Of a DNA stretch of 64,000 nucleotides, positions 15,387-64,000 are shown one piece after another. This stretch comes from Clostridia bacterium (GTDB taxonomy: Bacteria > Bacillota > Clostridia > Oscillospirales > CAG-272), in the NCBI GenBank assembly GCA_017540175.1, contig JAFYBN010000008.1:10030-74029 (forward strand). Direction: 5' to 3'. The stretch's first letter is position 1; each line of letters begins with the position of its first letter. The notes under the pieces were generated by a model. The model was not told the DNA's origin, did not search any database, and was given only the letters and a program-made list of their open reading frames with translations. The position numbers were made by a program, and so were the translations under genes.

Positions 15387-15415
15387 TTGCGCTACGGCGA
15401 AAAAAGTGGTATAAT
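15387..15415 (+). promoter_or_regulatory. sigma-A type promoter (extended -10)
   Basis: TTGCGC, 17-nt spacer, TGgTATAAT. Lies 84 nt upstream of the DUF4430 gene. Confidence 0.5.
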
Positions 15416-15498
15416 GTTCGCACAGAGGGTCCCCCCTCCGCGCGGTGCGGGAACGCTTCCCCGCCGCATTATTTTGATCGATTCAAAGGAGAACTATC

Positions 15499-15894
15499 AT
15501 GAAAAGACTTTTGCCGCTTCTGCTCGCGCTGCTTCTGATCGCGTCGGCGGTCTGCCTCCCTTCCTGCGGAAAGAAGGATGAAGAAAAGAAAGAGGCCGCC
15601 GGGGAAATCACCATTACGGTCGAGGTGATCAACAAGGCGGGCGAGCACAAGGAGCACACCGTGAAGACCGCGAAGACCAATCTCGGCGACGCCCTGCTGG
15701 AAGCGAAAATCGCCGAGGGCGACGTCGGAGAATTCGGTCTCTATATCAAAGCCGTTGACGGCGAGGTCGCCGACTGGGATGCCGATCAGGCATACTGGGC
15801 GCTCTCGAAGAACGGCGAATACCTGATGACCGGCGCGTCCGACACCCCGATCGCGGACGGAGAACACTATGAACTGACCTATACGAAGGGTTAA
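15499..15894 (+). CDS. DUF4430 (transcobalamin-like) lipoprotein
   Basis: Signal peptide with lipobox LPSC-G. The remainder resembles the DUF4430 domain usually paired with ECF S-components. RBS AAAGGAGAA. Confidence 0.75.
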   Translation: MKRLLPLLLALLLIASAVCLPSCGKKDEEKKEAAGEITITVEVINKAGEHKEHTVKTAKTNLGDALLEAKIAEGDVGEFGLYIKAVDGEVADWDADQAYWALSKNGEYLMTGASDTPIADGEHYELTYTKG

Positions 15895-15899
15895 GCCCG

Positions 15900-16424
15900 A
15901 TGGTATCGCACCGGCAGCTCAGGGACATGCTCGTGCTGGCGATGCTCGGCGCGCTGATGTTCGCCGGGAAGCAGGTGTTCGAGGCATTTCCCAACATTCA
16001 CCCGATCGCGATGCTGCTCATGACCTATACCGTCGTCTATCGGGTCCGCGCCCTGATCCCGCTCTATATCTTCGTCCTTCTGGAAGGCGTGTGGGCGGGA
16101 TTCAACATCTGGTGGTTCCCCTACCTGTACATCTGGACGATCCTGTGGGGCATTACGATGCTTCTTCCGAAAAAGATGAAGCCCGGGGTCGCCATGATCG
16201 TTTATCCCGTCGTCTGCGCGCTGTTCGGGCTTTGCTACGGAACGCTTTATTCCCCCGCTCAGGCGGTCATGTTCCACCTGAGCTTCGAATCGACCCTCAA
16301 ATGGATCGTGATGGGGCTGCCGTGGGACGGACTGCACGCACTCGGAAACCTCGGCATGGGTCTTTTGATCTACCCCCTGTCGCGCGTGCTCGCGAAACTC
16401 GACGCGTCCGGACAAACGGTTTAA
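15900..16424 (+). CDS. ECF-transporter S-component-like membrane protein
   Basis: 174 aa with about 5-6 hydrophobic helices rich in W/Y/F. Lies 5 nt after the DUF4430 gene. No ECF A/T genes are in the window. Confidence 0.6.
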   Translation: MVSHRQLRDMLVLAMLGALMFAGKQVFEAFPNIHPIAMLLMTYTVVYRVRALIPLYIFVLLEGVWAGFNIWWFPYLYIWTILWGITMLLPKKMKPGVAMIVYPVVCALFGLCYGTLYSPAQAVMFHLSFESTLKWIVMGLPWDGLHALGNLGMGLLIYPLSRVLAKLDASGQTV

Positions 16425-16443
16425 CAAACCGAAAACCGAATAG

Positions 16444-16500
16444 AAAAAACGGGCTGACGCATTCCCCGGTTTCCCGGAGACTTGCGTCAGCCCTGTTTTG
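16444..16500. terminator. bidirectional intrinsic terminator
   Basis: AAAAAAC-GGGCUGACGCA...UGCGUCAGCCC-UGUUUUG between convergent genes. Confidence 0.7.
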
Positions 16501-16555
16501 GTTCCGCGAACCGCCGATCAGCGGCAAGCGGTAAAGGCTGCAAGCGGCGGATGAC

Positions 16556-18037
16556 TCAGTTTATGATCTTTTCGAAGTTCGCGAGCATCTTGTCGAGCAG
16601 CTTCACCGCGCTGCGCTGCTGCTTCTCGTAATATGAGCCCACGCCCGTACCGGAGGCCCCGAGATCGCCGAGGATGTTCTTGAACGGCAGATCGTAGGCA
16701 TAGGCAAACGAGGTCATGCGGGTATCGGCGATGATCTGGAGCATTTCGGCGTCGTCCGGGGAGTCCGCCATGCGCCGCTTCATCGAAACGTCGAAATAAA
16801 CGGGCAGGACGTGCTGATAGTTGTAGCAGGAAAGCGCTTCGCAGATCGTTCCGACGATGTCGGTCTGCTCGCCCGAGACGGTCGTGGGAATGCCCCACGG
16901 TCCGTCCGTACAGCAGTTCACATAGTCCTTCTGCGTCTCGTCGAGCTTCGGGCAGGGGAGGAAACCGTAGGTGAAATCAAAACTGCTGTAAATATCGTAC
17001 GCGTCGCCGATCTCGCCGAGGTTGACAAGGCTGTTTCCGGTCTGGAAGACGGCGCTGCCGAAGAAATCGCCCGCGTCGAGATAATCCTGCGTGCCCATGA
17101 GCTCGCGCATTTTGGCGACGTAGCGATCGGTGCGGTCGAGGTCAAGGCTGAGTTCGATCCGCCCCTCGGCGTTTCTGGAATAGGGGGTGACCCCGACGGA
17201 CTCCTGGAAGCAGTAATAGGTCTGGCTGCCCGTGACGAATCCGATCCGGTCGCTCGCGTCGATCTTTCCGTTGCCGTCAAGATCGCTCGCCACGTCCCGG
17301 ACGTAGGCAAGCATCGCGTCCAGCGTCCAGGTCCCCTCGCGCACGGCGTCGTAGGGAACGCCGATCATGAGTTCGCCCGCGATATCCTTATTCACCATGA
17401 GCGCCCGCGTCCAATGGATGCCGAGATAGGAAAGGTAGCTCGACATGGCGTAGAGCGAATCGTTGATCGTGAGGGTATCGAGCATAATGGGCGGCCACCA
17501 CGGCTTCGAAAAATCAAACTGGCCGACGGACTTCATGTCGAGCAGATACCCCTTCGGCGCAAACGCGTAGGTGATATAGTCCGGCGCGACCATGACGTCG
17601 AAGGCGTCGTCCGCGGTCTTGATGGATTTCATGAAGGTATTCGAGTCGTTGCCGTAGAGATCGTAGGACAGCTTCACGTTGAAGCGCTGCTCGATGTAGA
17701 GCGTCGAATCGCGCAGGGCGTCCTTCACGGGCGTGCCGGTGTAGTCGTCCATGGAGATGACGTATTCCGCCATCGGGACGCCGTTGCCCTGACCGCAGGC
17801 GATGCGGAAGCCGTATCCCCCGAAATCGGTGTCGGGCAGGCCGTCCGTAAGAAGGGTCTCTTCCGGTTCGGTCTCTTCTTCCTCAGGCGTCGGGGACGCG
17901 CTCGAAACAGGCTCGGCGGCCGGTTCGGCTTCGGCGGACGGGGCGTCCTTGTTTGTCTCGCTCTCGCCGCAGGAAACAAGGAGCGGCAGCATGAGAAGAG
18001 CGGCGAGGAGGAAACAAAGGATTTTCTTCGTTTTCAT
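16556..18037 (-). CDS. extracellular solute-binding lipoprotein (ABC sugar-binding family-like), orphan
   Basis: 493 aa. Signal peptide plus lipobox LVSC-G, an acidic linker, then SBP-like sequence. No permease or ATPase genes are adjacent. Confidence 0.7.
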   Translation of the reverse strand: MKTKKILCFLLAALLMLPLLVSCGESETNKDAPSAEAEPAAEPVSSASPTPEEEETEPEETLLTDGLPDTDFGGYGFRIACGQGNGVPMAEYVISMDDYTGTPVKDALRDSTLYIEQRFNVKLSYDLYGNDSNTFMKSIKTADDAFDVMVAPDYITYAFAPKGYLLDMKSVGQFDFSKPWWPPIMLDTLTINDSLYAMSSYLSYLGIHWTRALMVNKDIAGELMIGVPYDAVREGTWTLDAMLAYVRDVASDLDGNGKIDASDRIGFVTGSQTYYCFQESVGVTPYSRNAEGRIELSLDLDRTDRYVAKMRELMGTQDYLDAGDFFGSAVFQTGNSLVNLGEIGDAYDIYSSFDFTYGFLPCPKLDETQKDYVNCCTDGPWGIPTTVSGEQTDIVGTICEALSCYNYQHVLPVYFDVSMKRRMADSPDDAEMLQIIADTRMTSFAYAYDLPFKNILGDLGASGTGVGSYYEKQQRSAVKLLDKMLANFEKIIN

Positions 18038-51466: not shown

Positions 51467-52744
51467 TTACTGTTTCACGAGATTCGCGAGCGCGTCCCCG
51501 AGCTCCCCGTCCTTCATGCGGTGAACGGCGGAAATCGTTCTCACGGACATATCGTGCGCCCGTTCTTCGAGCGTGTTGGCGGCGCCCGGTCCGGCAAATC
51601 CCTTGCTTTCCGGGTCGAGGAAGACCGTCGACAGCAGCACGCGCCGCGAAAGCGTTCCGCCGAATTTGCCCGCCACGGTGTCGACCTTATAGAGCTCGTC
51701 CACGTCGATATCCCCGTTCTTGCAGGAGATGAACACCGGCACGACGCCGCGCACAAGCACGACGTCGACCTCGTTTTTGGTCCCGTTCGGGTTTCCGTCC
51801 CAGTCGAGCACCACCCCGATGGCGGCGGAGTCGTAAACGGACATGCCGCCGCGCCTGAGATCGAGCGCGGTACAGTAGGTGTGGTATTCGAGGATCGAGC
51901 CCGCCTTGGTGAGGCATTCGCGGACGATCTTATTCTTATAGGTAAAGAGGATCATATCCCCGTTCTGCTCCGTGACGCGGATCAAACCCGCGTCGGCGAG
52001 CTCGTCGAAGAAGGCGCGGTTCAGCCTGTTCTTGCCGGACCCGAAGGAGGAATGGGGGATCGCCCACACGCCTTCCTCCCCGACGGATCGGCTGACCTCC
52101 GCGGACATCCTGCCGATCAGGGTATTCCAGTCGGCGCACGCCCGCTTCGAGATCCGCCACAGGGCTTCGATGTCCTCTTCCTCCTCTGCGCCGGGCGAAA
52201 TCGTCTGGCTCCGGGATACGATGATTCCGCCGTGGAGGCGGACCATTTCGTCGACCGTGAGGTAGAGCGGGGATTCGCCTTTTTCGGTGTAGTCGATCTG
52301 CTCCTTTGTAATCGAAAGATGCCCCTCGGACGTTCTGTCCATCCGGAATATGGTCGCCTGTCTTGTGATCGGTCCGCACCGGAACGCGTACAGGTTCCGC
52401 TTTTCCCCCGCGCGGCTGCCGAGAATGGCGCCCACGGCGAGCAGAGCGGTCTCGTCCCCGCCGGAGATATCCACGGCACAGACCTCGTCCGGCTCGTCGG
52501 ATCGGTCATCGAGAAGCGCGTCGAGCACGGCGACGGTCGATTCGAGATCGCTTCTCGCCGCGCTGCGCACGAGCAGTTCCGTCTTGATGCCGCGTCCGCG
52601 CAAAATCGCCTCGTATGCCGGGAGCGCGCGCTGCATTCTTCGCACGTCCGTGCCGACGAAAACGGTGACGTCCGGCTTCAAGGCAAGGGAGCCGATGATG
52701 TTTTCGATCGGGGATCGGTCAAACAATTCGACGAGCGTCGTCAT
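51467..52744 (-). CDS. CARF-like Rossmann domain fused to DUF1887 PD-(D/E)xK nuclease-like domain (Card1/Can2-like), not CRISPR-linked
   Basis: 425 aa. The N-terminus MTTLVELFDRSPIENII...VCAVDISGGDETALLAVG resembles the Card1/DUF1887 CARF start. C-terminal GSILEYHTYCTAL...NEVDVVLVRGVVPVFISCKNG...LYKVDTVAGKFGG matches the GxxLE / NExDV / xCK nuclease blocks. Start ATG overlaps the deoD stop (ATGA). Confidence 0.65.
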   Translation of the reverse strand: MTTLVELFDRSPIENIIGSLALKPDVTVFVGTDVRRMQRALPAYEAILRGRGIKTELLVRSAARSDLESTVAVLDALLDDRSDEPDEVCAVDISGGDETALLAVGAILGSRAGEKRNLYAFRCGPITRQATIFRMDRTSEGHLSITKEQIDYTEKGESPLYLTVDEMVRLHGGIIVSRSQTISPGAEEEEDIEALWRISKRACADWNTLIGRMSAEVSRSVGEEGVWAIPHSSFGSGKNRLNRAFFDELADAGLIRVTEQNGDMILFTYKNKIVRECLTKAGSILEYHTYCTALDLRRGGMSVYDSAAIGVVLDWDGNPNGTKNEVDVVLVRGVVPVFISCKNGDIDVDELYKVDTVAGKFGGTLSRRVLLSTVFLDPESKGFAGPGAANTLEERAHDMSVRTISAVHRMKDGELGDALANLVKQ

Positions 52745-53457
52745 GACATCTCCACCGCCGTATTCAGCGCGACCTCCATCATCGTGGTGAAGGTCTTTTC
52801 TCTTTCCTCAGCCGAGCATGATTCATGGGTCAGGAGGTGGTCGGAGATCGTGCAGATCGCGAGCGCGCGCTTCCCCGCTCTTGCAGCCGTCATATAGAGC
52901 GCTGCCGCTTCCATTTCGACCGCGTACACGCCCATTTTGCGCCAGCCCGCGTTCGCCTCTTCTGCGTCCTCGTTGTAGAAAAGGTCCGAGGACAGGAGAT
53001 TTCCGACGTGATAACGCGCGCCGAGCTTGTCCGCCTGAGCAACCGCCGCGGCAAGGAGCTCATAGGACGCGATGGGCGCGTAGGTTCCGTGGAGTCCGAA
53101 ATGCGCGGCGAAATTCGAGTTGGTGCACGTGCCCATTCCAAAGACGAGGTCGCGCAGGCGCACATCCTCTCGCATTCCTCCCGCGGAGCCGATGCGGATG
53201 ATGTTCTCCACGCCGTAAAACTCATAGAGCTCATATGCGTGGATCCCGATGGACGGCATGCCCATTCCGCTCGACATGACGGATACCGGGCAGCCCTTAT
53301 AGAGTCCGGTATAACCGTTCGCGGCGCGGACGGGATTCACGAGACGCGCGTCCGTGAGATAGTTCTCCGCGACGAATTTCGCGCGCAGGGGATCGCCGGG
53401 CATGAGGACGGTTTTCGCGAAGTCTCCTCGTTCGGCTCTGTTGTGCGGTGTTGACAT
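52741..53457 (-). CDS. deoD: purine nucleoside phosphorylase, DeoD type
   Basis: 238 aa, colinear with E. coli DeoD (…GDFAKTVLMPGDPLRAKFVAE…, …VEMEAAALY…, …ISDHLLTHE…). Confidence 0.95.
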   Translation of the reverse strand: MSTPHNRAERGDFAKTVLMPGDPLRAKFVAENYLTDARLVNPVRAANGYTGLYKGCPVSVMSSGMGMPSIGIHAYELYEFYGVENIIRIGSAGGMREDVRLRDLVFGMGTCTNSNFAAHFGLHGTYAPIASYELLAAAVAQADKLGARYHVGNLLSSDLFYNEDAEEANAGWRKMGVYAVEMEAAALYMTAARAGKRALAICTISDHLLTHESCSAEEREKTFTTMMEVALNTAVEMS

Positions 53458-53472
53458 GGTATGCCTCCCTTC

Positions 53473-54153
53473 TTAAAGCAGTCCGCCCGTTTTGACGATG
53501 CGGACGACGCGGCTGGTGCCGAGACGGTCCGCGCCGAGGGCGAGAAATTTCTCCGCGTCCTCGAGCGAGGAAATCCCGCCCGCCGCTTTTATTTTCAGTC
53601 CCGGCTTCACGTGCGCGGCAAAGAGCGCGACGTCGTCGAAGGTCGCGCCGCCCTTCGAAAAGCCGGTCGACGTCTTGATGTAATCCGCGCCGGACTCGCC
53701 GACGATCTCACACATTTTGATTTTTTCCTCGTCCGTGAGCAGGCAGGTTTCGATGATGACCTTCAGAATCTTTCCCGGCGCAACAGCGTCCATGGCCTCG
53801 CGCACGCCCCGGATGTCCCGGAGCACGTCGTCGTAGCGGCCGTCTTTCAGCCATCCGATGTTGATCACGGTATCGATCTCATCCGCGCCGTTCTGCAGCG
53901 CGTCCGCCGCTTCGAACGCCTTGGACGCGGGGGTGGAATACCCGTTCGGGAAGCCGACCACCGTGCAGACGGCGACGCGGCCCGCGGCGTAGTCCGCCGC
54001 CTCTTTGACCCAACACGCCGGGATGCACACCGACGCGGTATGATAGCGGATGCCGTCGTCAATCACGGCGCGGATGTCCTCCCATTTCGCGTCGACCGCA
54101 AGCAGGGTGTGGTCGACGTGGGAGAGGATTTCTTTGATTTTGTTCTGTTCCAT
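53473..54153 (-). CDS. deoC: deoxyribose-phosphate aldolase
   Basis: …IDHTLL…, [10 protein letters not shown] and …YIKTSTGF… (Schiff-base Lys) blocks. Start trimmed to ATG 54153 (MEQNKIKE) behind AGAGGG; the track ORF is over-extended. Confidence 0.9.
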
Positions 54154-54170: not shown

Positions 54171-55409
54171 TCAGCCCGGTTCCCCGGCGATCCAGCGGCG
54201 TTCCACCTCTTTGAAAACCTCGTCCGGGATGTCGATCTGTTCGTGGATCTGATTCGAGACGTACATCTGCCCCGCGCTCTCGGGGAAGGTGCAGAAGGTG
54301 TCGTTGCGCCAGGCGTCCCGCTCTTCTTTGTTGCGCAGATTCGGCAGGCGGATGGGCTGGTTGCCCATGACGATGGAGCGGTAGCCGAGCGTGCCGGGGA
54401 TGCACATATCAACCGCGTCATACACGTTGATGGCGCGTTCCCGCGCGACCTCGTCGCCGAGGATGGTGCGGATGAAATAATAGGTGGTGAAGAAGTCCCC
54501 ACCGCCGTGTCCGCTGTTTTCCGTCCCCGCCACAATGGGCGTGGGGGTATAGACCTTGTGCTCGCCGCGGCAGTTCTGACCCGGCTTCTCGGTGTAAACG
54601 GCGATTTGCCCGTTGCCGAGGTCCTGCACGCCGCCGAGGTCGCCGTTCAGCTGATAATTCGAGTGCCGTGTGGACTTGATGTTGAAGTGCAGGGATTTGA
54701 GCATCGCGCCGTTCTCGAGCGTCACGATCTCCATGCCGAGCGAGCCGGACGCCGTGCCGAGATTGCGCATGAAGGGCATGTTCGGCGTCTCGAACGCGGA
54801 CACCTGAACCGGTCTCAGTCCCGTCATATAGAGGATCGGGCCGATGGAGTGGGTGCAGTAGAAGGTGGATGGCATGATGTTGCGCCAGTGGTTCCGCTCG
54901 CCGTAGGTGATCTGCGGCCAGATGGACGAGCAGTCGTGGAGGTATTCCCCTTCGGCATACATGAGCTCGCCGAGCGCGCCCGAGCGGTAGATGTTCCGCA
55001 TTTCCCAGCGGACGGGGGTATAGCAGTAGTTTTCCGCGTAGGTATAGACCTTGCCCGTTTCCTCCACCGCTTCGATCAGCTCGACCGCCTCCGCCATATT
55101 CGCGACGGTCAGGCATTCGGTCATGATATGCCGACCGGAGCGCAGGAGCTTGATGCCGAATTTCGCGTGCTCGTGCGCGTAGTTCGCGCAGACGACCGCG
55201 TCCATGTCGTGCTCGAAGAAATCGTCAAAGCGTTCGTAGTAGGTGATGTCGTACAGGCCGCACGCCTCCGCCTCCCTGCGGCACGCGTCAAGCAGGGGCT
55301 TGTATTTGTCGCAGACCGCGACGAGCTCCGCTTCCGTGCTGTGCAGGATCTGACGGATCATCGTCATGCCCCGCCCAGCGCCGAATACGCCGATTTTGAT
55401 TTTCGCCAT
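54171..55409 (-). CDS. Gfo/Idh/MocA-family NAD(P)-dependent oxidoreductase
   Basis: 412 aa. N-terminal [13 protein letters not shown] Rossmann fold plus the typical alpha/beta C-terminal domain. Confidence 0.85.
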
Positions 55410-55448
55410 GTTTCGTCCTCCTTGTTGATGTCGTTTCAGAAAGCTCTA

Positions 55449-56498
55449 TTATGCGGGCAACTCAAATTTTCCGTCCTTCAGCCGCCAGAGCCGCACTTCG
55501 GTGTACTGCCCGTCCGGTCCCGCGCCCTCGTGAGAGATATAGAAATAACCGTCCCCCAGCGCGGCGATCCCGGTGGACCCGTGGGGGAAATCCACGCCGT
55601 CCGTTCCGTGCGCGTCAAGGCTGAGAAGCTCTCCCTCCGTCGGCGGAACGACGCCCCTCAAAAGCCCCTTGTGCGGTTTTGCCGCCGCGTCCGCCAGAAA
55701 CAGCGGCGGGTTTTTGAAGCCCGGCTTCTTTCCGGGATAGACGCAGAGGAAGAATTTGCGGGTGGCGGGGTCGTACTCGAGGTTCTGCACGCCGTAGGTC
55801 GTATTGCCCGTATAAACGAAATACCGGGAATCCGGCGCGTCCGGTCCCGTGGTGTGCGGGCACGCCTGATCGAGCGGCTCGGAAACCTCCCAAAGCCGTT
55901 CGGGATCGTATTTGAGTATGATCTGATGGTCGTTGTCGTCCCGCGAAATGTCGGAATAGATGCCGTAGGCGACAAAAATCCAATTCTTCGATTCGGCCGG
56001 CTCACCGAAATCCGGCGCGGCCGCGCAGCCGTCGATCCCGGAGCAGCCGAAGCGGTGCTTCACGACTCTGCCGTCCCCGAGCCGCACGTCGGCGAGATAA
56101 TCCTCGGTGACGGCGCGCAGAAACGAAGCGCGCATGATCCCGCCCGCCTCCATGTCCGGCTCCGTGATCCGATCGACGTCAAACATGGCGACGTAGAAGC
56201 GGTCCGACACGGGCTGATCCGTGCCGAGCATCCGGGCGATGCCGCGTCCGATCACGTCGTTCTTATATTCAAGCGATCCGTACACCCGCCCGCTTTCGGG
56301 ATGAAACGCGATGCACCCGAGATGCCCGGTGAGTCCCTTCACCGAGCCGACAAAGCGCCCCGCAAGGTCGGTCTTGACAAGCATCGTCGTGAAGGAGTAA
56401 TAGATATAACCCTTTGCGAGATCGACGGCGATCCCCTGGCAGTGCGGCGTGCGGTACGCGCCGGAATAAATGCGCCGCGGGAGGTTATCGGTATTCAC
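55449..56498 (-). CDS. hypothetical protein (no family recognised; possibly beta-propeller-like)
   Basis: 349-aa ORF with GC3-rich codons. Start overlaps the upstream PHP gene's stop by 4 nt, which argues for a real, co-translated gene. Confidence 0.6.
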   Translation of the reverse strand: MNTDNLPRRIYSGAYRTPHCQGIAVDLAKGYIYYSFTTMLVKTDLAGRFVGSVKGLTGHLGCIAFHPESGRVYGSLEYKNDVIGRGIARMLGTDQPVSDRFYVAMFDVDRITEPDMEAGGIMRASFLRAVTEDYLADVRLGDGRVVKHRFGCSGIDGCAAAPDFGEPAESKNWIFVAYGIYSDISRDDNDHQIILKYDPERLWEVSEPLDQACPHTTGPDAPDSRYFVYTGNTTYGVQNLEYDPATRKFFLCVYPGKKPGFKNPPLFLADAAAKPHKGLLRGVVPPTEGELLSLDAHGTDGVDFPHGSTGIAALGDGYFYISHEGAGPDGQYTEVRLWRLKDGKFELPA

Positions 56499-57310
56499 TC
56501 GGCCCTCCAGATCGTGACGCCCGTGATCTTTTCGTTCAGGCGCTCGTTGTCGTGCCGGACGAAGCCGAGGCCGCGCAGAAAATCCTCCGCCTCGTCGAAC
56601 CAGCAGGTGAGCTTTTCCTTGTAGTGACAGTCGGAATTGACGATGACCGATCCGCCCGCCGCCTTGATCTCGGAGAGCAGGAACGCCGACGGATACGGCA
56701 CGTCTCTGAGTCCGCGGGCGATCGCTCCGGTATTCAGCTCGAACAGAGGGCAGTGCTTGACGATCTCGCGGATCGCCTCGACCGCGGCGTCCCGGCAGAT
56801 CGGGTCGTCCTCAGGGAAGATGCCGTACTTCGTCGGCAGATCGAAATGCCCGACGATGTCGGCTTTATTCCGCATCACATGCTCGGTCAGGCGCTCGTAG
56901 TACGCCTTGCCGAAGTCCGTCCAGCTTCCGTGAAAGAGTCGCTCCACCAAATCACGCTGACCCGCTTCGCCGCCGTCGATGGAGCCCCACTGTGCGTGGC
57001 GCACCATCTCGTGCACGGACGCGATGATAAAATCCCAGTCCCCATATTCCATGGGCGTTTCCGAGTCCAGCTCGATGCCCGCCCATATCGCGATCTCTCC
57101 CCGGTACGCCGCTGCGAGGGAGCGAAGCTCGGTGAGGCAGTGCTGCACGACTCCGGCGCTCACGGCGTAAATCGACGCGAGGGGGGAGGGAGAATGCTCG
57201 GAAAAGCCGAGGGAGTGAAAGCCCAGCGCAAGGGCAGCTTCGATCATTTCCCGCGGGGTGTCGTGACCGTCGGAAAACCTGGTGTGAGTGTGAAAATTCT
57301 GTCTCTGCAT
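56495..57310 (-). CDS. PHP-family phosphatase (histidinol-phosphatase HisJ-like)
   Basis: MQRQNFHTHTRFSDGHDTPREMI...GFSEHSP.... Start trimmed to ATG 57310. Confidence 0.8.
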   Translation of the reverse strand: MQRQNFHTHTRFSDGHDTPREMIEAALALGFHSLGFSEHSPSPLASIYAVSAGVVQHCLTELRSLAAAYRGEIAIWAGIELDSETPMEYGDWDFIIASVHEMVRHAQWGSIDGGEAGQRDLVERLFHGSWTDFGKAYYERLTEHVMRNKADIVGHFDLPTKYGIFPEDDPICRDAAVEAIREIVKHCPLFELNTGAIARGLRDVPYPSAFLLSEIKAAGGSVIVNSDCHYKEKLTCWFDEAEDFLRGLGFVRHDNERLNEKITGVTIWRAE

Positions 57311-57315
57311 ATCGT

Positions 57316-57981
57316 TCAGTCCTGTTCCAAAATTTGCGGCAGGTCGGCAAAACGTGAAACGGCGTATTCGTAGTCGTCGGTTTTCCCGCGTCCCCACGTC
57401 TCGCCGAAGCCGTAGAGGCAGTAGACGAAGGGAATGCCCGCGCCGTGCGCGCCCTCGGCGTCGCTGACCGTGTCGCCGACGTAGACGCCGCGCTCGACGC
57501 CCCGGCGGTTCATGACGTCGCGGATGTTCTCCGCTTTGTTCTTACCGCTTCTGCCCGAGGATTCGCGGTCCTCGAACACGTCCCAGAGGCGGTGTGCCGT
57601 GAGAAAGGACTCAATGTAGCCGTCCTGCGCGTTCGACACGACGAAGAGGCGGTATCCCGCTTCCTTCAGGAGCGCGAGCGTTTCGGGCACCCCGGGATAG
57701 AGGATGCCGCCGCGCTCGGGGAGCCAGAGGTTCTCGAGCGCGCAGCTTTCCTCCATGAGCGAAAACGCCTCCTGAAAGCTCAGCGCGGGGAAGAAAATGC
57801 CCGCAAGCTCCTCGTTTGTCAGTCCCATGTAGCGGCAGACGCTCTCCCGGTTCAGCTCCACGGTGGCCTTCACGTCCAGGTGGCGCGCGAGAACCTCGAC
57901 CCAAGTCTGTGCCGTGACGCTCGAAGCGTCCCACAGCGTGCCGTCCAGATCGAACAGCACGCCGTCAAATTTCTTCTTCAA
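57316..57981 (-). CDS. HAD-IA family hydrolase (phosphoglycolate/sugar phosphatase-like)
   Basis: TTG start behind GGAGAA. Motif I VLFDLDGTLWD, VVSNAQ and GDTVSDAEGAHGAG. Confidence 0.85.
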   Translation of the reverse strand: MKKKFDGVLFDLDGTLWDASSVTAQTWVEVLARHLDVKATVELNRESVCRYMGLTNEELAGIFFPALSFQEAFSLMEESCALENLWLPERGGILYPGVPETLALLKEAGYRLFVVSNAQDGYIESFLTAHRLWDVFEDRESSGRSGKNKAENIRDVMNRRGVERGVYVGDTVSDAEGAHGAGIPFVYCLYGFGETWGRGKTDDYEYAVSRFADLPQILEQD

Positions 57982-62427: not shown

Positions 62428-64000
62428 TCAGTCGAGGAAATAGATCACCATGTCGTGCACATAGCCTTCGCTGCTGATGAGGGAGTAATAGGGATTACTC
62501 GGGCTCACCCAGATATCGACCTGCCACTCGTAGAGTTTCGGTCCCCCGTCCGCCGCCGTGCGTACGCCGAAGTCATACCGGTCGTTGCGGATGTACATTC
62601 TCGTGTAATACGGGATGTGGTTCGTATCGACGGCGACGATGGTCTCGTCCGCCTCCTTGCCGATATAGGTCGGTCCGGGGAGATTGTAGTAGGTGGCGGG
62701 ACAGACGCGTTTCCAGGAATAGCTGTATGTGACCCCGTCCGCGCCGACGAGGGTGCCGCCCACGCCGACCTGCACGCGCTCCGTGACGGCGGGCACGATG
62801 ACTTCCTCGGAGTCGAGGCGGCGTTCGAATTCCACGCCGTTTTTATAGGTGACCGTATAGTGCATCACGGATTTTCCGTCCGCGCCCGCCTGCAGGGAAA
62901 CGACGTCCCCGCGCGGGATGGTGTCGATCTCGATCCGTTCGGTCTCGTGCTGCGTGGTCCGCGTGATGTTTTCGGTAATGGTTTCGTACTTGTCCACCTT
63001 GATCGTCACGCTCTCGGTGATGAGCGCGTTCAGATCGACGGAATCGATGCGCTCGCCGGGCAGCAGCGAGGTGTTGTTCTCGGCGAGGATCGCCGCAACC
63101 GTGGTGGGCTCGGTGAAGACCGTGATGTTCTGGCGGTCATAGAAATCGAGCATGATCCAGATCTTTTCGGCTTCCGCCACAGGCGGCTCGATTTGCTGCC
63201 AGCCGTCGCCGGCTTCCGTTTCGCCTCCGGTCGGGGGCTCCTCGGTCTGTCCGGTCACACTTCCCGGCTGCTGTGCTTCCGTGCCGCCCGGATTTTCGGG
63301 CTCGCCCGCTTCGCCGCTTGTGTCGGGTTCGCCGACCTCGCCCGCTCCGTCTTCACCCGTTCCGCCTTCTTCACCGGTCTGAGCGTCGACGGGGGAGACG
63401 GGATCGTTCTCTTCCCCGCCCTCTCCGGCATTTCCTTCGGCCGGCAGTGTATCGTCCGGTCTGCCGGGTTCGCCGGTCTCCGACACGGTCTTGCCGGGCT
63501 CTTCGGGCTGTTCTCCGGCTCTCTTCGATTTGACGATCGCCGAGATGATCAGCCCGGCGATGAGCGTCAGAATCACGGCGGCGGCTACGCCGAACAGGAT
63601 CGCCTTCTTTCGGCGCTTTGCGGCCTGCTCCTCCGCCTTCTTCCGCTCTTCGATTTCCCGCTCCTCCGGGTCACCCCCGAAGTCCGGGTAATCCGCCGCA
63701 CTCTGCCAGGGCGCGGCAGTCTGCGGAGTCGGGCTGCTCGGTGCAGGCTGAACCGGTCCGTCGCTCTGCCGCTGCTGGAACACGGCTGTGTGACCGGACG
63801 GCAGGTGGGTATTGTTCTCCGTTCTCACGCGGATGGGAGCCGCGGTGGATACCCGCGCGTGACGGGCTCCGAGGATCCGCTCCGCGATTTCCGCGAGGTT
63901 TTCGGGCTCTTCTTCAGGCTCTTCGGACTCGTCGGACTCGTCGTATTCTTCGTATCCCTCGTATTCTTCCTCGTAACCTTCGTATTCTTCGTATTCTCCG
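62428..64000 (-). CDS. YabE/RpfB-like DUF348-G5-3D cell-wall protein with acidic low-complexity regions; 5' end may lie beyond the window
   Basis: The G5 block reads …IEIDTIPRGDVVSLQAGADGKSVMHYTVTYKNGVE…. The C-terminal 3D/MltA-like block reads …VAVDTNHIPYYTRMYIRN…QVDIW…. One TM helix (ILFGVAAAVILTLIAGLIISAIV). The reading frame stays open upstream of the track's GTG (63828) to position 64000, encoding ...EYEEYEGYEEEYEGYEEYDESDESEEPEEEPENLAEIAERILG.... Confidence 0.75.
   Translation of the reverse strand, partial: GEYEEYEGYEEEYEGYEEYDESDESEEPEEEPENLAEIAERILGARHARVSTAAPIRVRTENNTHLPSGHTAVFQQRQSDGPVQPAPSSPTPQTAAPWQSAADYPDFGGDPEEREIEERKKAEEQAAKRRKKAILFGVAAAVILTLIAGLIISAIVKSKRAGEQPEEPGKTVSETGEPGRPDDTLPAEGNAGEGGEENDPVSPVDAQTGEEGGTGEDGAGEVGEPDTSGEAGEPENPGGTEAQQPGSVTGQTEEPPTGGETEAGDGWQQIEPPVAEAEKIWIMLDFYDRQNITVFTEPTTVAAILAENNTSLLPGERIDSVDLNALITESVTIKVDKYETITENITRTTQHETERIEIDTIPRGDVVSLQAGADGKSVMHYTVTYKNGVEFERRLDSEEVIVPAVTERVQVGVGGTLVGADGVTYSYSWKRVCPATYYNLPGPTYIGKEADETIVAVDTNHIPYYTRMYIRNDRYDFGVRTAADGGPKLYEWQVDIWVSPSNPYYSLISSEGYVHDMVIYFLD

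What the first reader, a model, noticed from the sequence alone, without database searches (positions are those of the whole stretch)
51467..52744. Orphan CARF-DUF1887 (Card1/Can2-like) protein translationally coupled to deoD inside a nucleoside/sugar catabolic operon
The 425-aa protein has the Card1/Can2 architecture. Its N-terminal Rossmann/CARF-like domain starts MTTLVELFDRSPIENII. The C-terminal restriction-endonuclease-like DUF1887 domain carries GSILEYHTY..., NEVDVV..., FISCKNG. Card1/Can2 proteins are cyclic-oligoadenylate-activated effectors of type III CRISPR systems. Here there is no CRISPR array or cas gene anywhere in 64 kb. The gene's ATG overlaps the stop of housekeeping deoD (ATGA), and it is followed 10 nt later by glxK. 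Two motif positions look altered relative to what I recall for canonical members. The ligand-loop TGGTK-like motif reads SGGDE. The acidic residue of the ExK triad reads Ser (ISCK). This suggests a domesticated or re-purposed sensor, responding to a different nucleotide or nucleoside ligand with nuclease activity possibly lost or changed, rather than a classical defence effector.
Basis: partly seen in the sequence, partly recalled or inferred. Interest (0 to 1): 0.7.

Follow-up and report, generated by a model that had tools for sequence, protein, structure and literature searches.

The report
Stand-alone Can2-like nuclease, CorA-CRISPR family
This gene encodes a sensor-plus-nuclease protein of the kind that type III CRISPR systems use as an alarm-triggered weapon; here it sits alone in a nucleoside-catabolism operon, but its unusual sensor and catalytic motifs are shared with relatives that lie inside CRISPR loci next to the CorA effector, which suggests the family listens to the SAM-AMP alarm molecule, not the usual cyclic oligoadenylates.

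Summary
A 425-aa CARF + PD-(D/E)xK protein (window 51467-52744, minus strand) overlaps the deoD stop (ATGA) and ends 10 nt before the glycerate kinase gene. The AF2 model (pLDDT 92) matches VC1899, Can2, Card1 and Cdn1 (Foldseek E 1e-22 to 1e-15). Profile alignments confirm both motif changes: GGTK becomes GGDE, and ECK becomes SCK. No CRISPR array, Cas10, Cmr or CorA gene was found in the 64 kb.

The two changes do not mark a domesticated copy. They are the invariant signature of a large family (815 cluster representatives at E<=1e-30; at least 470 species genomes, mostly Oscillospirales). Five relatives in four lineages carry the same signature and lie inside complete type III-B loci with an HD-less Cas10, beside a CorA effector, the hallmark of SAM-AMP signalling. 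The other catalytic residues (E286, E325, D327, K342) are invariant. Active TbrCan2 also has Ser at this position, so nuclease loss is unlikely. The deoD linkage is synteny confined to one clade.

Best reading: a ligand-gated Can2-type nuclease tuned to a non-cOA signal, plausibly SAM-AMP. The window copy is encoded away from any signal generator. This is a new variant of a known kind, and the ligand is untested.

The parts
51467..52744 (-). Gene for the 425-aa CARF + PD-(D/E)xK (Can2/Card1-like) protein
   Evidence: ORF; PADLOC CARF4--CARF_PDDEXK 5.4e-21; AF2 pLDDT 92; Foldseek to VC1899/Can2/Card1/Cdn1
52220..52744 (-). CARF (Rossmann-like sensor) domain, about aa 1-175; family-invariant E6, N15, P24, D92, G95, G96, G172, G173
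   Evidence: Alignments A1 and A2. The CARF-only profile hits SthCan2, 8BAO, Card1 and Cdn1. Secondary structure is from the model.
52451..52468 (-). Ligand loop I93-S-G-G-D97-E98 after strand beta4. It corresponds to (V/I)(T/S)GGTK of the cA4 receptors, with Thr replaced by Asp and Lys by Glu.
   Evidence: Sequence; HMMER alignments to 7BDV, 8BAO, 6WXW, 8Z4I and 1XMX R96. SthCan2 K99 is a conserved cA4 contact (PMC7969007).
51920..52219 (-). Linker and helical/beta insertion of the nuclease domain, about aa 176-275, with invariant W206-N207
   Evidence: Model secondary structure; alignment A1. An equivalent insertion is described for Can2 and VC1899 (PMC7969007).
51470..51919 (-). PD-(D/E)xK nuclease core, about aa 276-425
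   Evidence: Pfam PF09002 match to residues 281-372; profile alignment to 8BAO and 1XMX
51887..51889 (-). Codon of E286 (GSILEYH), the helix Glu of the active site; equivalent to TbrCan2 Glu304 by motif order
   Evidence: Invariant in 185/185 sequences; motif E-ExD-...K described in PMC10783487
51764..51775 (-). N324-E325-V-D327: the ExD metal-binding motif (SthCan2 E276/D278, VC1899 E291/D293)
   Evidence: Alignment to KNEIDC (8BAO) and RNELDV (1XMX); invariant; PMC7969007
51719..51733 (-). F338-I-S340-C-K342: variant of the ECK motif, with Ser in place of Glu and Lys retained
   Evidence: Sequence; alignment to FVECK and IIECK; S-C-K in 185/185. D327 to S340 is 13 residues, the same spacing as SthCan2 D278 to E291.
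52741..52744 (-). ATGA start/stop overlap with deoD (translational coupling)
   Evidence: The same 4-nt overlap occurs in L002, and gaps of 10-36 nt occur in L008, L009, L013 and L017.
52741..53457 (-). deoD, DeoD-type purine nucleoside phosphorylase (upstream, same operon)
   Evidence: NF004489 5.6e-98, TIGR00107; Pfam PNP_UDP_1
53473..54150 (-). deoC, deoxyribose-phosphate aldolase
   Evidence: TIGR00126 2.5e-68
54171..57397 (-). Upstream operon genes: GFO/IDH/MocA oxidoreductase (54171-55409), conserved 349-aa unknown (55449-56498), HisJ-family PHP phosphatase (56495-57397)
   Evidence: synteny in L002-L008 and L013
50323..51456 (-). Glycerate kinase gene 10 nt downstream. The linkage is specific to this genome.
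   Evidence: TIGR00045 1e-130. It is not downstream in any related locus.

Best explanation
The gene encodes a ligand-gated nuclease of the Can2/Card1 type, presumably a dimer like its solved relatives. It belongs to a distinct, large and uncharacterised subfamily defined by an E...ExD...S-C-K nuclease motif and an acidic CARF ligand loop, GG-(D/E)-(D/E).

Shown:
- the fold;
- the intact metal-binding core;
- the family-wide motif states;
- that members occur inside type III-B CRISPR loci with an HD-less, cyclase-competent Cas10, directly beside the CorA membrane effector.

Inferred:
- The CARF domain does not bind cA4. It binds the signal made by those CorA-type systems, most plausibly SAM-AMP. 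The cationic methionine moiety of SAM-AMP would favour acidic residues where cA4 receptors have Thr-Lys.
- Ligand binding then switches on metal-dependent, non-specific cleavage of RNA and/or DNA.

The window copy is a stand-alone chromosomal member. It has been inherited with a PHP...deoC-deoD gene block in a clade of rumen Oscillospiraceae and is translationally coupled to deoD. No signal generator lies within 64 kb. It would therefore be activated in trans by a CorA-type III-B system elsewhere in the genome, or stay silent where none exists.
For: Fold and domains.

Catalytic core: E286, E325, D327 and K342 are invariant in 81 loci proteins and in 185 sequences not selected by pattern. Ser at the ECK-Glu position occurs in the active enzyme TbrCan2 (PMC10783487).

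Ligand loop: T-K is replaced by D-E against four cA4 receptors. The Lys-equivalent position is acidic in 94% of the family. SthCan2 K99 is a conserved cA4 contact.

CRISPR-embedded members with the identical signature:
- L046: Cas6, Cmr1, Cas10, Cmr3-6, CorA, family member, Cas6, 9-repeat array.
- L081.
- L087/L088, L089 and L090, found by the reverse test from Cas10 homologues.
- CorA is confirmed in all of them, at E 1e-65 to 1e-84.
- 3 of the 7 Cas10 loci sampled in the reverse test hold a family member.

Cas10 clade: GGDD and DxD are invariant, there is no HD region, and exactly two N-terminal acidic residues are invariant. This parallels D70/E151 of the SAM-AMP synthase (PMC10600005).

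Signal sharing: effectors for different signals almost never share a locus (PMC11229360).

Constraint and inheritance: the family has 815 cluster representatives at E<=1e-30 and occurs in at least 470 species genomes. It is absent from viral contigs. This argues for a functional, constrained protein.
Against: - No binding or activity data exist for any member.
- Only five CRISPR-linked loci in four lineages were found, against 1 of 41 well-flanked loci on the family side.
- CorA families may respond to different molecules (PMC11229360). The match of Cas10 D79/E146 to B. fragilis D70/E151 was not verified against a reference sequence.
- VC1899 also has an acidic pocket without any CorA link.
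- The rest of the window's genome could not be searched, so trans-activation is conjecture.
- Position 97 is Lys or Arg in about 5% of members, including the CRISPR-linked L089 and L090 (GGKE), so the loop is not uniformly acidic.
Confidence: 0.45

Rival explanations
1. Signal-degrading enzyme, not an effector. The protein binds SAM-AMP or a related signal and hydrolyses it, as an off-switch or as the degradation step needed for immunity. It would stand in for the NrN, DEDD or SAM-AMP-lyase genes that usually sit next to corA.
For: In L046, L089 and L090 the family gene occupies the position directly after corA, and no NrN, DEDD or lyase gene is recognisable in the locus. CorA immunity requires SAM-AMP degradation, and the degraders are normally adjacent to corA (PMC10600005 and PMC12255297; PMC13294483). 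CARF domains of other families have ring-nuclease activity (PMC12255297 introduction).
Against: L081 and L087 carry both the family gene and a neighbouring 202-aa DEDDh-like gene. The complete two-metal PD-(D/E)xK site and the Can2-like architecture are typical of nucleic-acid cleavage. Several CorA loci have neither a family member nor a recognisable degrader (L091, L092), so the absence of a degrader is not diagnostic.
Confidence: 0.15
2. Canonical cyclic-oligoadenylate effector with an unusual pocket. The protein is still activated by cA4, cA6 or cA3, and the CorA neighbours in these Clostridia loci also respond to a cOA.
For: All biochemically tested relatives with this fold respond to cA4 or cA6. 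The CARF motif [DN]x[ST]xGG is kept as D92, S/T94, G95 and G96. A basic residue (K or R) at position 10 is common, in 58 of 81 sequences. Hoikkala et al. warn that some CorA families may use other signals, such as cA6 with Csm6-2.
Against: The loop Thr-Lys present in all four cA4 receptors is replaced by acidic residues across the family. The Ser19-equivalent is Asp in 86%, by ungapped extrapolation. The same kind of pocket in VC1899 correlates with no cA4 response. The Cas10 clade lacks HD and resembles the CorA-1 type.
Confidence: 0.13
3. One reading: a domesticated metabolic sensor. In the deo-linked clade the CARF domain senses a nucleoside or (deoxy)ribose-phosphate metabolite, and the protein regulates or complements nucleoside catabolism.
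For: The ATGA coupling to deoD, and a conserved PHP...deoC-deoD-gene order in at least 11 related loci. An AAA_28 (NadR-kinase-like) gene recurs nearby in 8 loci. There is no cas gene in 64 kb.
Against: The linkage is confined to one clade and is absent from about 60 other loci, whose contexts are unrelated: AspRS, a membrane transporter, PrsW, an AAA-M41 protease. No residue distinguishes the deo-linked clade from CRISPR-embedded members at any invariant position. The motif changes cited as evidence predate the deo linkage.
Confidence: 0.12
4. Decaying remnant ('cast adrift' like VC1899): a former CRISPR ancillary nuclease that lost its partner system and has no regulated function in this genome.
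For: VC1899, the top structural match, is interpreted this way and is not activated by cA4 (PMC7969007). In L046 the cas cassette lies between two genes (c11 and the nuclease) that are adjacent in cas-less relatives. This is compatible with loss of the cassette elsewhere.
Against: The ORF is full length with every family-invariant residue intact. The gene is retained at a fixed operon position across a clade in which it has diverged to 38-58% identity without disruption. The family is very large and mostly cas-less locally. That pattern is hard to reconcile with neutral decay.
Confidence: 0.1

Closest known systems
Can2 / Card1 / Cdn1 (CARF4 or Crf4 PD-(D/E)xK effectors of type III CRISPR; Pfam PF09002, DUF1887)
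   Same: Two-domain architecture and fold (Foldseek E 1e-19 to 1e-15). Helix Glu, ExD motif and catalytic Lys are conserved. The CARF D-x-(S/T)-G-G motif is kept. Some family members lie in type III-B loci.
   Different: ECK becomes SCK and GGTK becomes GG(D/E)(D/E), family-wide. The CRISPR-linked members sit beside CorA, which was not reported for Can2 in the papers read. Most members, including the window copy, are not near cas genes. The Pfam score is below the gathering threshold.
VC1899 of Vibrio cholerae (PDB 1XMX), the founding DUF1887 protein
   Same: Best structural match (E 3e-22, TM 0.68/0.75). It is an orphan CARF nuclease with an acidic/hydrophobic pocket and is not activated by cA4. 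Asp is probably shared at the Ser19-equivalent position.
   Different: VC1899 keeps the ECK Glu and a basic residue (R96) at the Lys99 position, whereas this family has Ser and Glu/Asp. VC1899 is viewed as degenerate. This family is large, strongly constrained and has CRISPR-embedded members.
TbrCan2 (clade 1 Can2, Thermoanaerobacter brockii; PDB 8Q3Y-8Q44)
   Same: Ser at the position of Card1 Glu308 in an active enzyme, and an E-ExD core (PMC10783487).
   Different: TbrCan2 has SxTTS with the catalytic Lys relocated (Lys369), and it binds cA4. This family keeps Lys two residues after the Ser (S-C-K) and lacks the cA4 loop Lys.
SAM-AMP signalling module of CorA-type III-B systems (B. fragilis, C. 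botulinum): Cas10 SAM-AMP synthase, CorA effector, NrN/DEDD/SAM-AMP lyase
   Same: Relatives lie in loci with an HD-less GGDD Cas10, Cmr1-6, and CorA (PADLOC E down to 1e-84). Two loci also have a DEDDh-like gene. Acidic-for-basic substitution in a nucleotide pocket parallels Cas10 D70/E151.
   Different: No CARF protein is a known component of this pathway. The signal made by these particular Clostridia systems is untested. The window has none of these genes.

Membership tests
Can2/Card1 (CARF4, DUF1887) | [quoted passage not shown] | tested here: met
   PADLOC CARF4--CARF_PDDEXK, residues 1-405, 5.4e-21; AF2 pLDDT 92; Foldseek hits to 1XMX, 7BDV, 8BAO, 9U49, 6XL1 and 8Q3Z at E 1e-22 to 1e-14
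Can2/Card1 (CARF4, DUF1887) | Passes the Pfam PF09002 (Card1_endonuc) gathering threshold | tested here: not met
   23.5 bits against a cut-off of 26.4, E=4.3e-5. Several relatives carry PF09002 in precomputed annotation.
Can2/Card1 (CARF4, DUF1887) | Active-site helix Glu plus the ExD motif (SthCan2 E276/D278) | tested here: met
   E286, E325 and D327 align to KNEIDC/RNELDV and are invariant (PMC7969007)
Can2/Card1 (CARF4, DUF1887) | E-C-K motif: the Glu (Card1 E308, SthCan2 E291, Cdn1 E323) and the Lys | tested here: not met
   The Glu is Ser340 and the Lys is kept as K342. S-C-K occurs in 185/185 sequences. Clade 1 Can2 (TbrCan2) is an active exception with Ser356.
Can2/Card1 (CARF4, DUF1887) | cA4-contacting CARF residues (SthCan2 S19, T42, K99, Y118; loop GGTK) | tested here: not met
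   K99 corresponds to E98 and the loop Thr to D97. S19 corresponds to D9 by ungapped extrapolation. T42 corresponds to T32 here but is not conserved in the family. Y118 was not mapped.
Can2/Card1 (CARF4, DUF1887) | Encoded in or next to a type III CRISPR-Cas locus | tested here: not met
   For the window copy there are no arrays and no Cas10, Cmr or CorA in 64 kb. The feature is met for relatives L046, L081, L087/88, L089 and L090.
Can2/Card1 (CARF4, DUF1887) | cOA-dependent, metal-dependent nuclease activity | not testable with these tools
   Needs biochemistry
VC1899-like orphan CARF nucleases | Can2 fold, no CRISPR linkage, a pocket unsuited to cA4 | tested here: met
   Top Foldseek hit; orphan in the window; acidic substitutions. 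It differs from VC1899 in the ECK Glu and the R96 equivalent.
SAM-AMP pathway component (CorA-type III-B) | Co-located with corA and an HD-less Cas10 of the CorA-associated type | tested here: not met
   Not met for the window. Met for five relatives. 3 of 7 Cas10 loci sampled in the reverse test contain a family member.
SAM-AMP pathway component (CorA-type III-B) | The associated Cas10 carries the SAM-specific acidic residues (B. fragilis D70, E151) | tested here: inconclusive
   There are two invariant N-terminal acidic residues (D79, E146 in L046 numbering) in 126 clade members. No reference sequence was available to prove they are equivalent.
SAM-AMP pathway component (CorA-type III-B) | Binds or turns over SAM-AMP | not testable with these tools
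   Needs ITC/DSF, HPLC and nuclease assays

The most novel reading that the evidence does not exclude
This family is the first CARF-domain receptor, or degrader, of the SAM-AMP class of type III CRISPR signals. That would make it a second, nuclease-type output of a pathway in which CorA is the only known effector. Hundreds of gut and rumen Clostridia would keep stand-alone copies, such as the one in this deo operon, that listen in trans to a type III-B system encoded elsewhere.
Probability: 0.33. Interest if true: 0.8.

Novelty: new variant of a known kind. Interest (0 to 1): 0.6.

Why it matters
SAM-AMP signalling was discovered in 2023. In the papers read (up to mid-2026) its only effector is CorA, and the 2025 CRISPR classification says the pathway's components are not thoroughly characterised.

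A Can2-like nuclease recurs beside CorA. Its ligand loop has swapped the phosphate-binding Thr-Lys for acidic residues. This gives a concrete, cheaply testable candidate for a second SAM-AMP-responsive protein. It would also show how a CARF pocket can be retuned from an anionic cyclic oligoadenylate to a partly cationic conjugate.

The family is abundant in human-gut and rumen Oscillospirales and is mostly encoded away from cas genes. It therefore also bears on how far type III signalling acts in trans, and on how 'orphan' CARF proteins should be annotated.

For the window gene itself the practical message is narrower. It is an intact member of this family, not a degenerate or specially domesticated copy.

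Tried and rejected
- Sequence-only searches were uninformative. phmmer against PDB gave only spurious TALE-repeat hits, and NCBIfam gave nothing.
- Viral origin was rejected. A viral-contig scan found no relative.
- No universal functional partner exists. Unbiased clustering of neighbours within 6 genes across 73 loci found none, and the top cluster was present in 14 loci.
- The recurrent AAA-M41 protease / TM700 / RyR module is not a known defence system. PADLOC gave only generic AAA+ similarity and a negligible 'Cyclase' hit of 16.8 bits.
- The glxK linkage is unique to the window.
- The L008 'array' is a 94-nt tandem duplication, not CRISPR.
- The DEDD identity of the 202-aa neighbour is only weakly supported. 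L087 gives PADLOC DEDDh at 9e-5. L081 has no PADLOC, Pfam or PDB hit.
- The promoter/terminator scan of the operon gave nothing convincing.
- The Makarova 2020 CARF classification could not be read.
- The metagenome scan with the L046 protein returned only one locus.
- I could not obtain B. fragilis or C. botulinum Cas10 sequences to number D70/E151.
Full report
**1. The observation**

The window holds a 425-aa ORF on the minus strand at 51467-52744, starting MTTLVELFDRSPIENII. Its ATG overlaps the TGA of the upstream gene: the + strand reads tcat at 52741-52744. A GGTGGAG Shine-Dalgarno sequence precedes the start. The next gene begins 10 nt after its stop.

The upstream gene is a DeoD-type purine nucleoside phosphorylase (NF004489, 5.6e-98). 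It is preceded by deoC (TIGR00126), a GFO/IDH/MocA oxidoreductase, a conserved 349-aa protein with no family match, and a HisJ-family PHP phosphatase. The downstream gene is a glycerate kinase.

Profile and structure methods recover the claimed architecture:
- PADLOC CARF4--CARF_PDDEXK matches full length at 5.4e-21.
- Pfam Card1_endonuc matches residues 281-372 at E=4.3e-5, but scores 23.5 bits against a cut-off of 26.4.
- An AlphaFold2 model built on 32 homologues has pLDDT 92 and pTM 0.90.
- Its best PDB matches are VC1899 (3e-22), SthCan2, Dysgonamonadaceae Can2, Cdn1, Card1, TbrCan2 and Can1.

I found no sign of CRISPR or cas in the 64 kb:
- There are no spaced direct repeats.
- The large ORFs are housekeeping, including PurL, AsnB, an Fe-S oxidoreductase and an SLH protein.
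- tblastn with Cas6, Cmr1-6, Cas10 and CorA proteins from related loci finds nothing.

**2. The two motif claims hold in proper alignments**

A profile of 32 family members aligns F-I-S-C-K to F-V-E-C-K of 8BAO and I-I-E-C-K of VC1899, with N-E-I-D shared. A CARF-only profile aligns I-S-G-G-D-E to (V/I)(T/S)-G-G-T-K of SthCan2, 8BAO, Card1 and Cdn1.

In SthCan2, K99 in this loop is one of four cA4 contacts conserved with Can1. VC1899 has Arg there (PMC7969007). The window protein has Glu98. By ungapped extrapolation from the aligned Asn15/Asn25, the Ser19 position is Asp9, as in VC1899.

**3. What the motifs mean**

They are not peculiarities of this copy. Three samples give the same picture:
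- 81 proteins from genome loci;
- 185 database sequences that were not selected by any motif pattern;
- five CRISPR-embedded relatives.

Across them, E286, N324, E325, D327, S340, C341 and K342 are invariant. The Lys99-equivalent position is acidic in 94%.

The nuclease is probably active. SthCan2's named catalytic residues E276/D278 correspond to E325/D327. In the active, cA4-dependent TbrCan2 the ECK motif is absent. There Ser356 occupies the place of Card1 Glu308 and gives water-mediated metal coordination (PMC10783487). This family is a hybrid, E...ExD...S-C-K, and keeps the Lys.

**4. Family size and distribution**

An exhaustive profile search finds 3032 representatives at E<=1e-3 and 815 at E<=1e-30. 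A scan of one genome per species finds at least 470 relatives. Among the best 80 loci, almost all are gut and rumen Oscillospiraceae, Acutalibacteraceae or 'Clostridia' MAGs. None is on a viral contig.

**5. Genomic context from the family side**

deoD lies directly upstream only in the window's own clade of about 40% identity or more (L001-L010, L013, L017, L020). glxK is downstream only in the window.

The other roughly 60 loci have unrelated, lineage-specific contexts:
- a membrane transporter upstream and AspRS downstream;
- PrsW;
- a module of an AAA-M41 protease, a TM protein of about 700 aa and a RyR-domain protein;
- a pair of 158-aa paralogues upstream.

No neighbour is universal. Of 41 loci with at least 5 kb on both sides, only one has cas genes.

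**6. The exception that changes the reading**

L046 is a complete type III-B locus. In order it carries Cas6, Cmr1, Cas10/Cmr2 (491 aa, no HD region), Cmr3, Cmr4, Cmr5, a Cmr6-like RAMP, CorA (PADLOC 6e-77), the family member, a second Cas6, and a CRISPR array of at least 9 repeats.

A metagenome scan found a second such locus, L081. It has two arrays, a divergent corA, and a 202-aa gene next to the family member.

I then ran the test in reverse. The L046 Cas10 has 1205 relatives at E<=1e-10. Of seven sampled on long contigs, all have a CorA homologue after Cmr6. Three of them (L087, L089, L090) have a family member directly after corA or after an IS insertion.

These members are 30-33% identical to the window protein and carry the full signature. 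The closest relatives of the CRISPR-embedded L046 protein are themselves cas-less: P0028 at 54% and L043 at 52%. Linkage has therefore been gained or lost repeatedly. In L046 the cassette sits between two genes that are adjacent in cas-less relatives.

**7. Mechanistic inference**

CorA is the signature effector of SAM-AMP signalling. SAM-AMP synthases lack the HD domain, and they have acidic residues (D70, E151) where cOA cyclases have basic ones, because the methionine moiety is cationic (PMC10600005).

The Cas10 clade found here has invariant DxD and GGDD motifs, and exactly two invariant N-terminal acidic residues. This is suggestive, but I could not map those residues to the reference sequence.

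Effectors for different signals almost never share a locus (PMC11229360). Together with the Thr-Lys to acidic swap, this makes SAM-AMP, or a close relative such as SAM-AMP2 (PMC13294483), the most plausible ligand.

No paper I could search reports a CARF receptor for SAM-AMP.

A serious rival is that the protein degrades the signal. It occupies the corA-adjacent slot normally held by NrN, DEDD or the lyase, and three of the five loci show no recognisable degrader.

**8. Verdict on the window gene**

It is an intact member of this family. It is inherited by synteny at the end of a PHP...deoC-deoD block and is translationally coupled to deoD. No signal generator lies within 64 kb.

- Shown: the fold, the intact catalytic core, the family signature, local orphan status, and CRISPR/CorA linkage of relatives.
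- Inferred: the ligand identity, ligand-gated nuclease action, and trans-activation.

'Domesticated', 'nucleoside ligand' and 'nuclease lost' are not.

The closest precedent for an orphan with this fold is VC1899, which does not respond to cA4. It differs in that VC1899 keeps ECK and a basic loop residue.

I classify this as a new variant of a known kind, of moderate-to-high interest because it gives a directly testable candidate for a second SAM-AMP-responsive protein.

Noticed in passing
window 63920-63997: Tandem repeat with a 9-nt period (TCGTATTCT-like, about 6 copies) at the window edge. It is probably a coding low-complexity repeat.
   Followed up: no
window 55449-56498 (-): A 349-aa protein with no Pfam, NCBIfam or PADLOC match. 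It is conserved at 59-65% identity in the same operon position, between the PHP phosphatase and the GFO oxidoreductase, in L002-L008.
   Followed up: partly
L024, L029, L054, L063, L069 (directly upstream of the nuclease) and L046:1108-1599: A protein family of about 158 aa, often as two tandem paralogues, precedes the CARF nuclease in cas-less loci. In L046 it lies upstream of the whole cas cassette. It has a weak PADLOC REase_II hit (6.7e-5).
   Followed up: partly
L040, L041, L047, L054, L055, L063, L069, L070, L080 (downstream of the nuclease): A recurrent same-strand module: a 1147-aa AAA_2 + AAA + Peptidase_M41 protein, a membrane protein of about 700 aa with no Pfam match, and a 96-aa RyR-domain protein. 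It is not recognisable as a known defence system.
   Followed up: partly
L085:16405-17121 and L086:9432-10148: In a CorA-type III-B locus without the CARF nuclease, corA is followed by a 238-aa Zn-dependent phospholipase C (PF00882) gene. This is a possible alternative accessory gene.
   Followed up: no
L093:1-6409 and 15390-17642: An RT-Cas1 fusion, Cas2 and a PP2C phosphatase + Ser/Thr kinase pair lie next to a type III-B cassette. Its CorA-like protein is 750 aa and divergent.
   Followed up: no
L081:9363-9971 and L087:19446-20054: A conserved 202-aa gene (63% identical between the two loci) sits beside the CARF nuclease in two CRISPR loci. DxE and Hx4D motifs are visible by eye. PADLOC DEDDh gives 9e-5 for L087 only, so it may be a SAM-AMP phosphodiesterase.
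   Followed up: partly
P0025 (1.3-kb ENA contig): A chimeric 274-aa gene call: a QueE-like radical-SAM N-terminus (CNLACSYCD) joined to the C-terminal half of a family member. It is probably an assembly or gene-call artefact.
   Followed up: partly
L008:15814-16001: A near-perfect 94-nt tandem duplication that a k-mer screen first flagged as CRISPR-like. It is not an array.
   Followed up: yes
L046:13139-17061: Downstream of the CRISPR array lie an IS66 transposase fragment, a bacterial EndoU nuclease gene and a phage-type integrase. This suggests the locus lies in or next to a mobile island.
   Followed up: no
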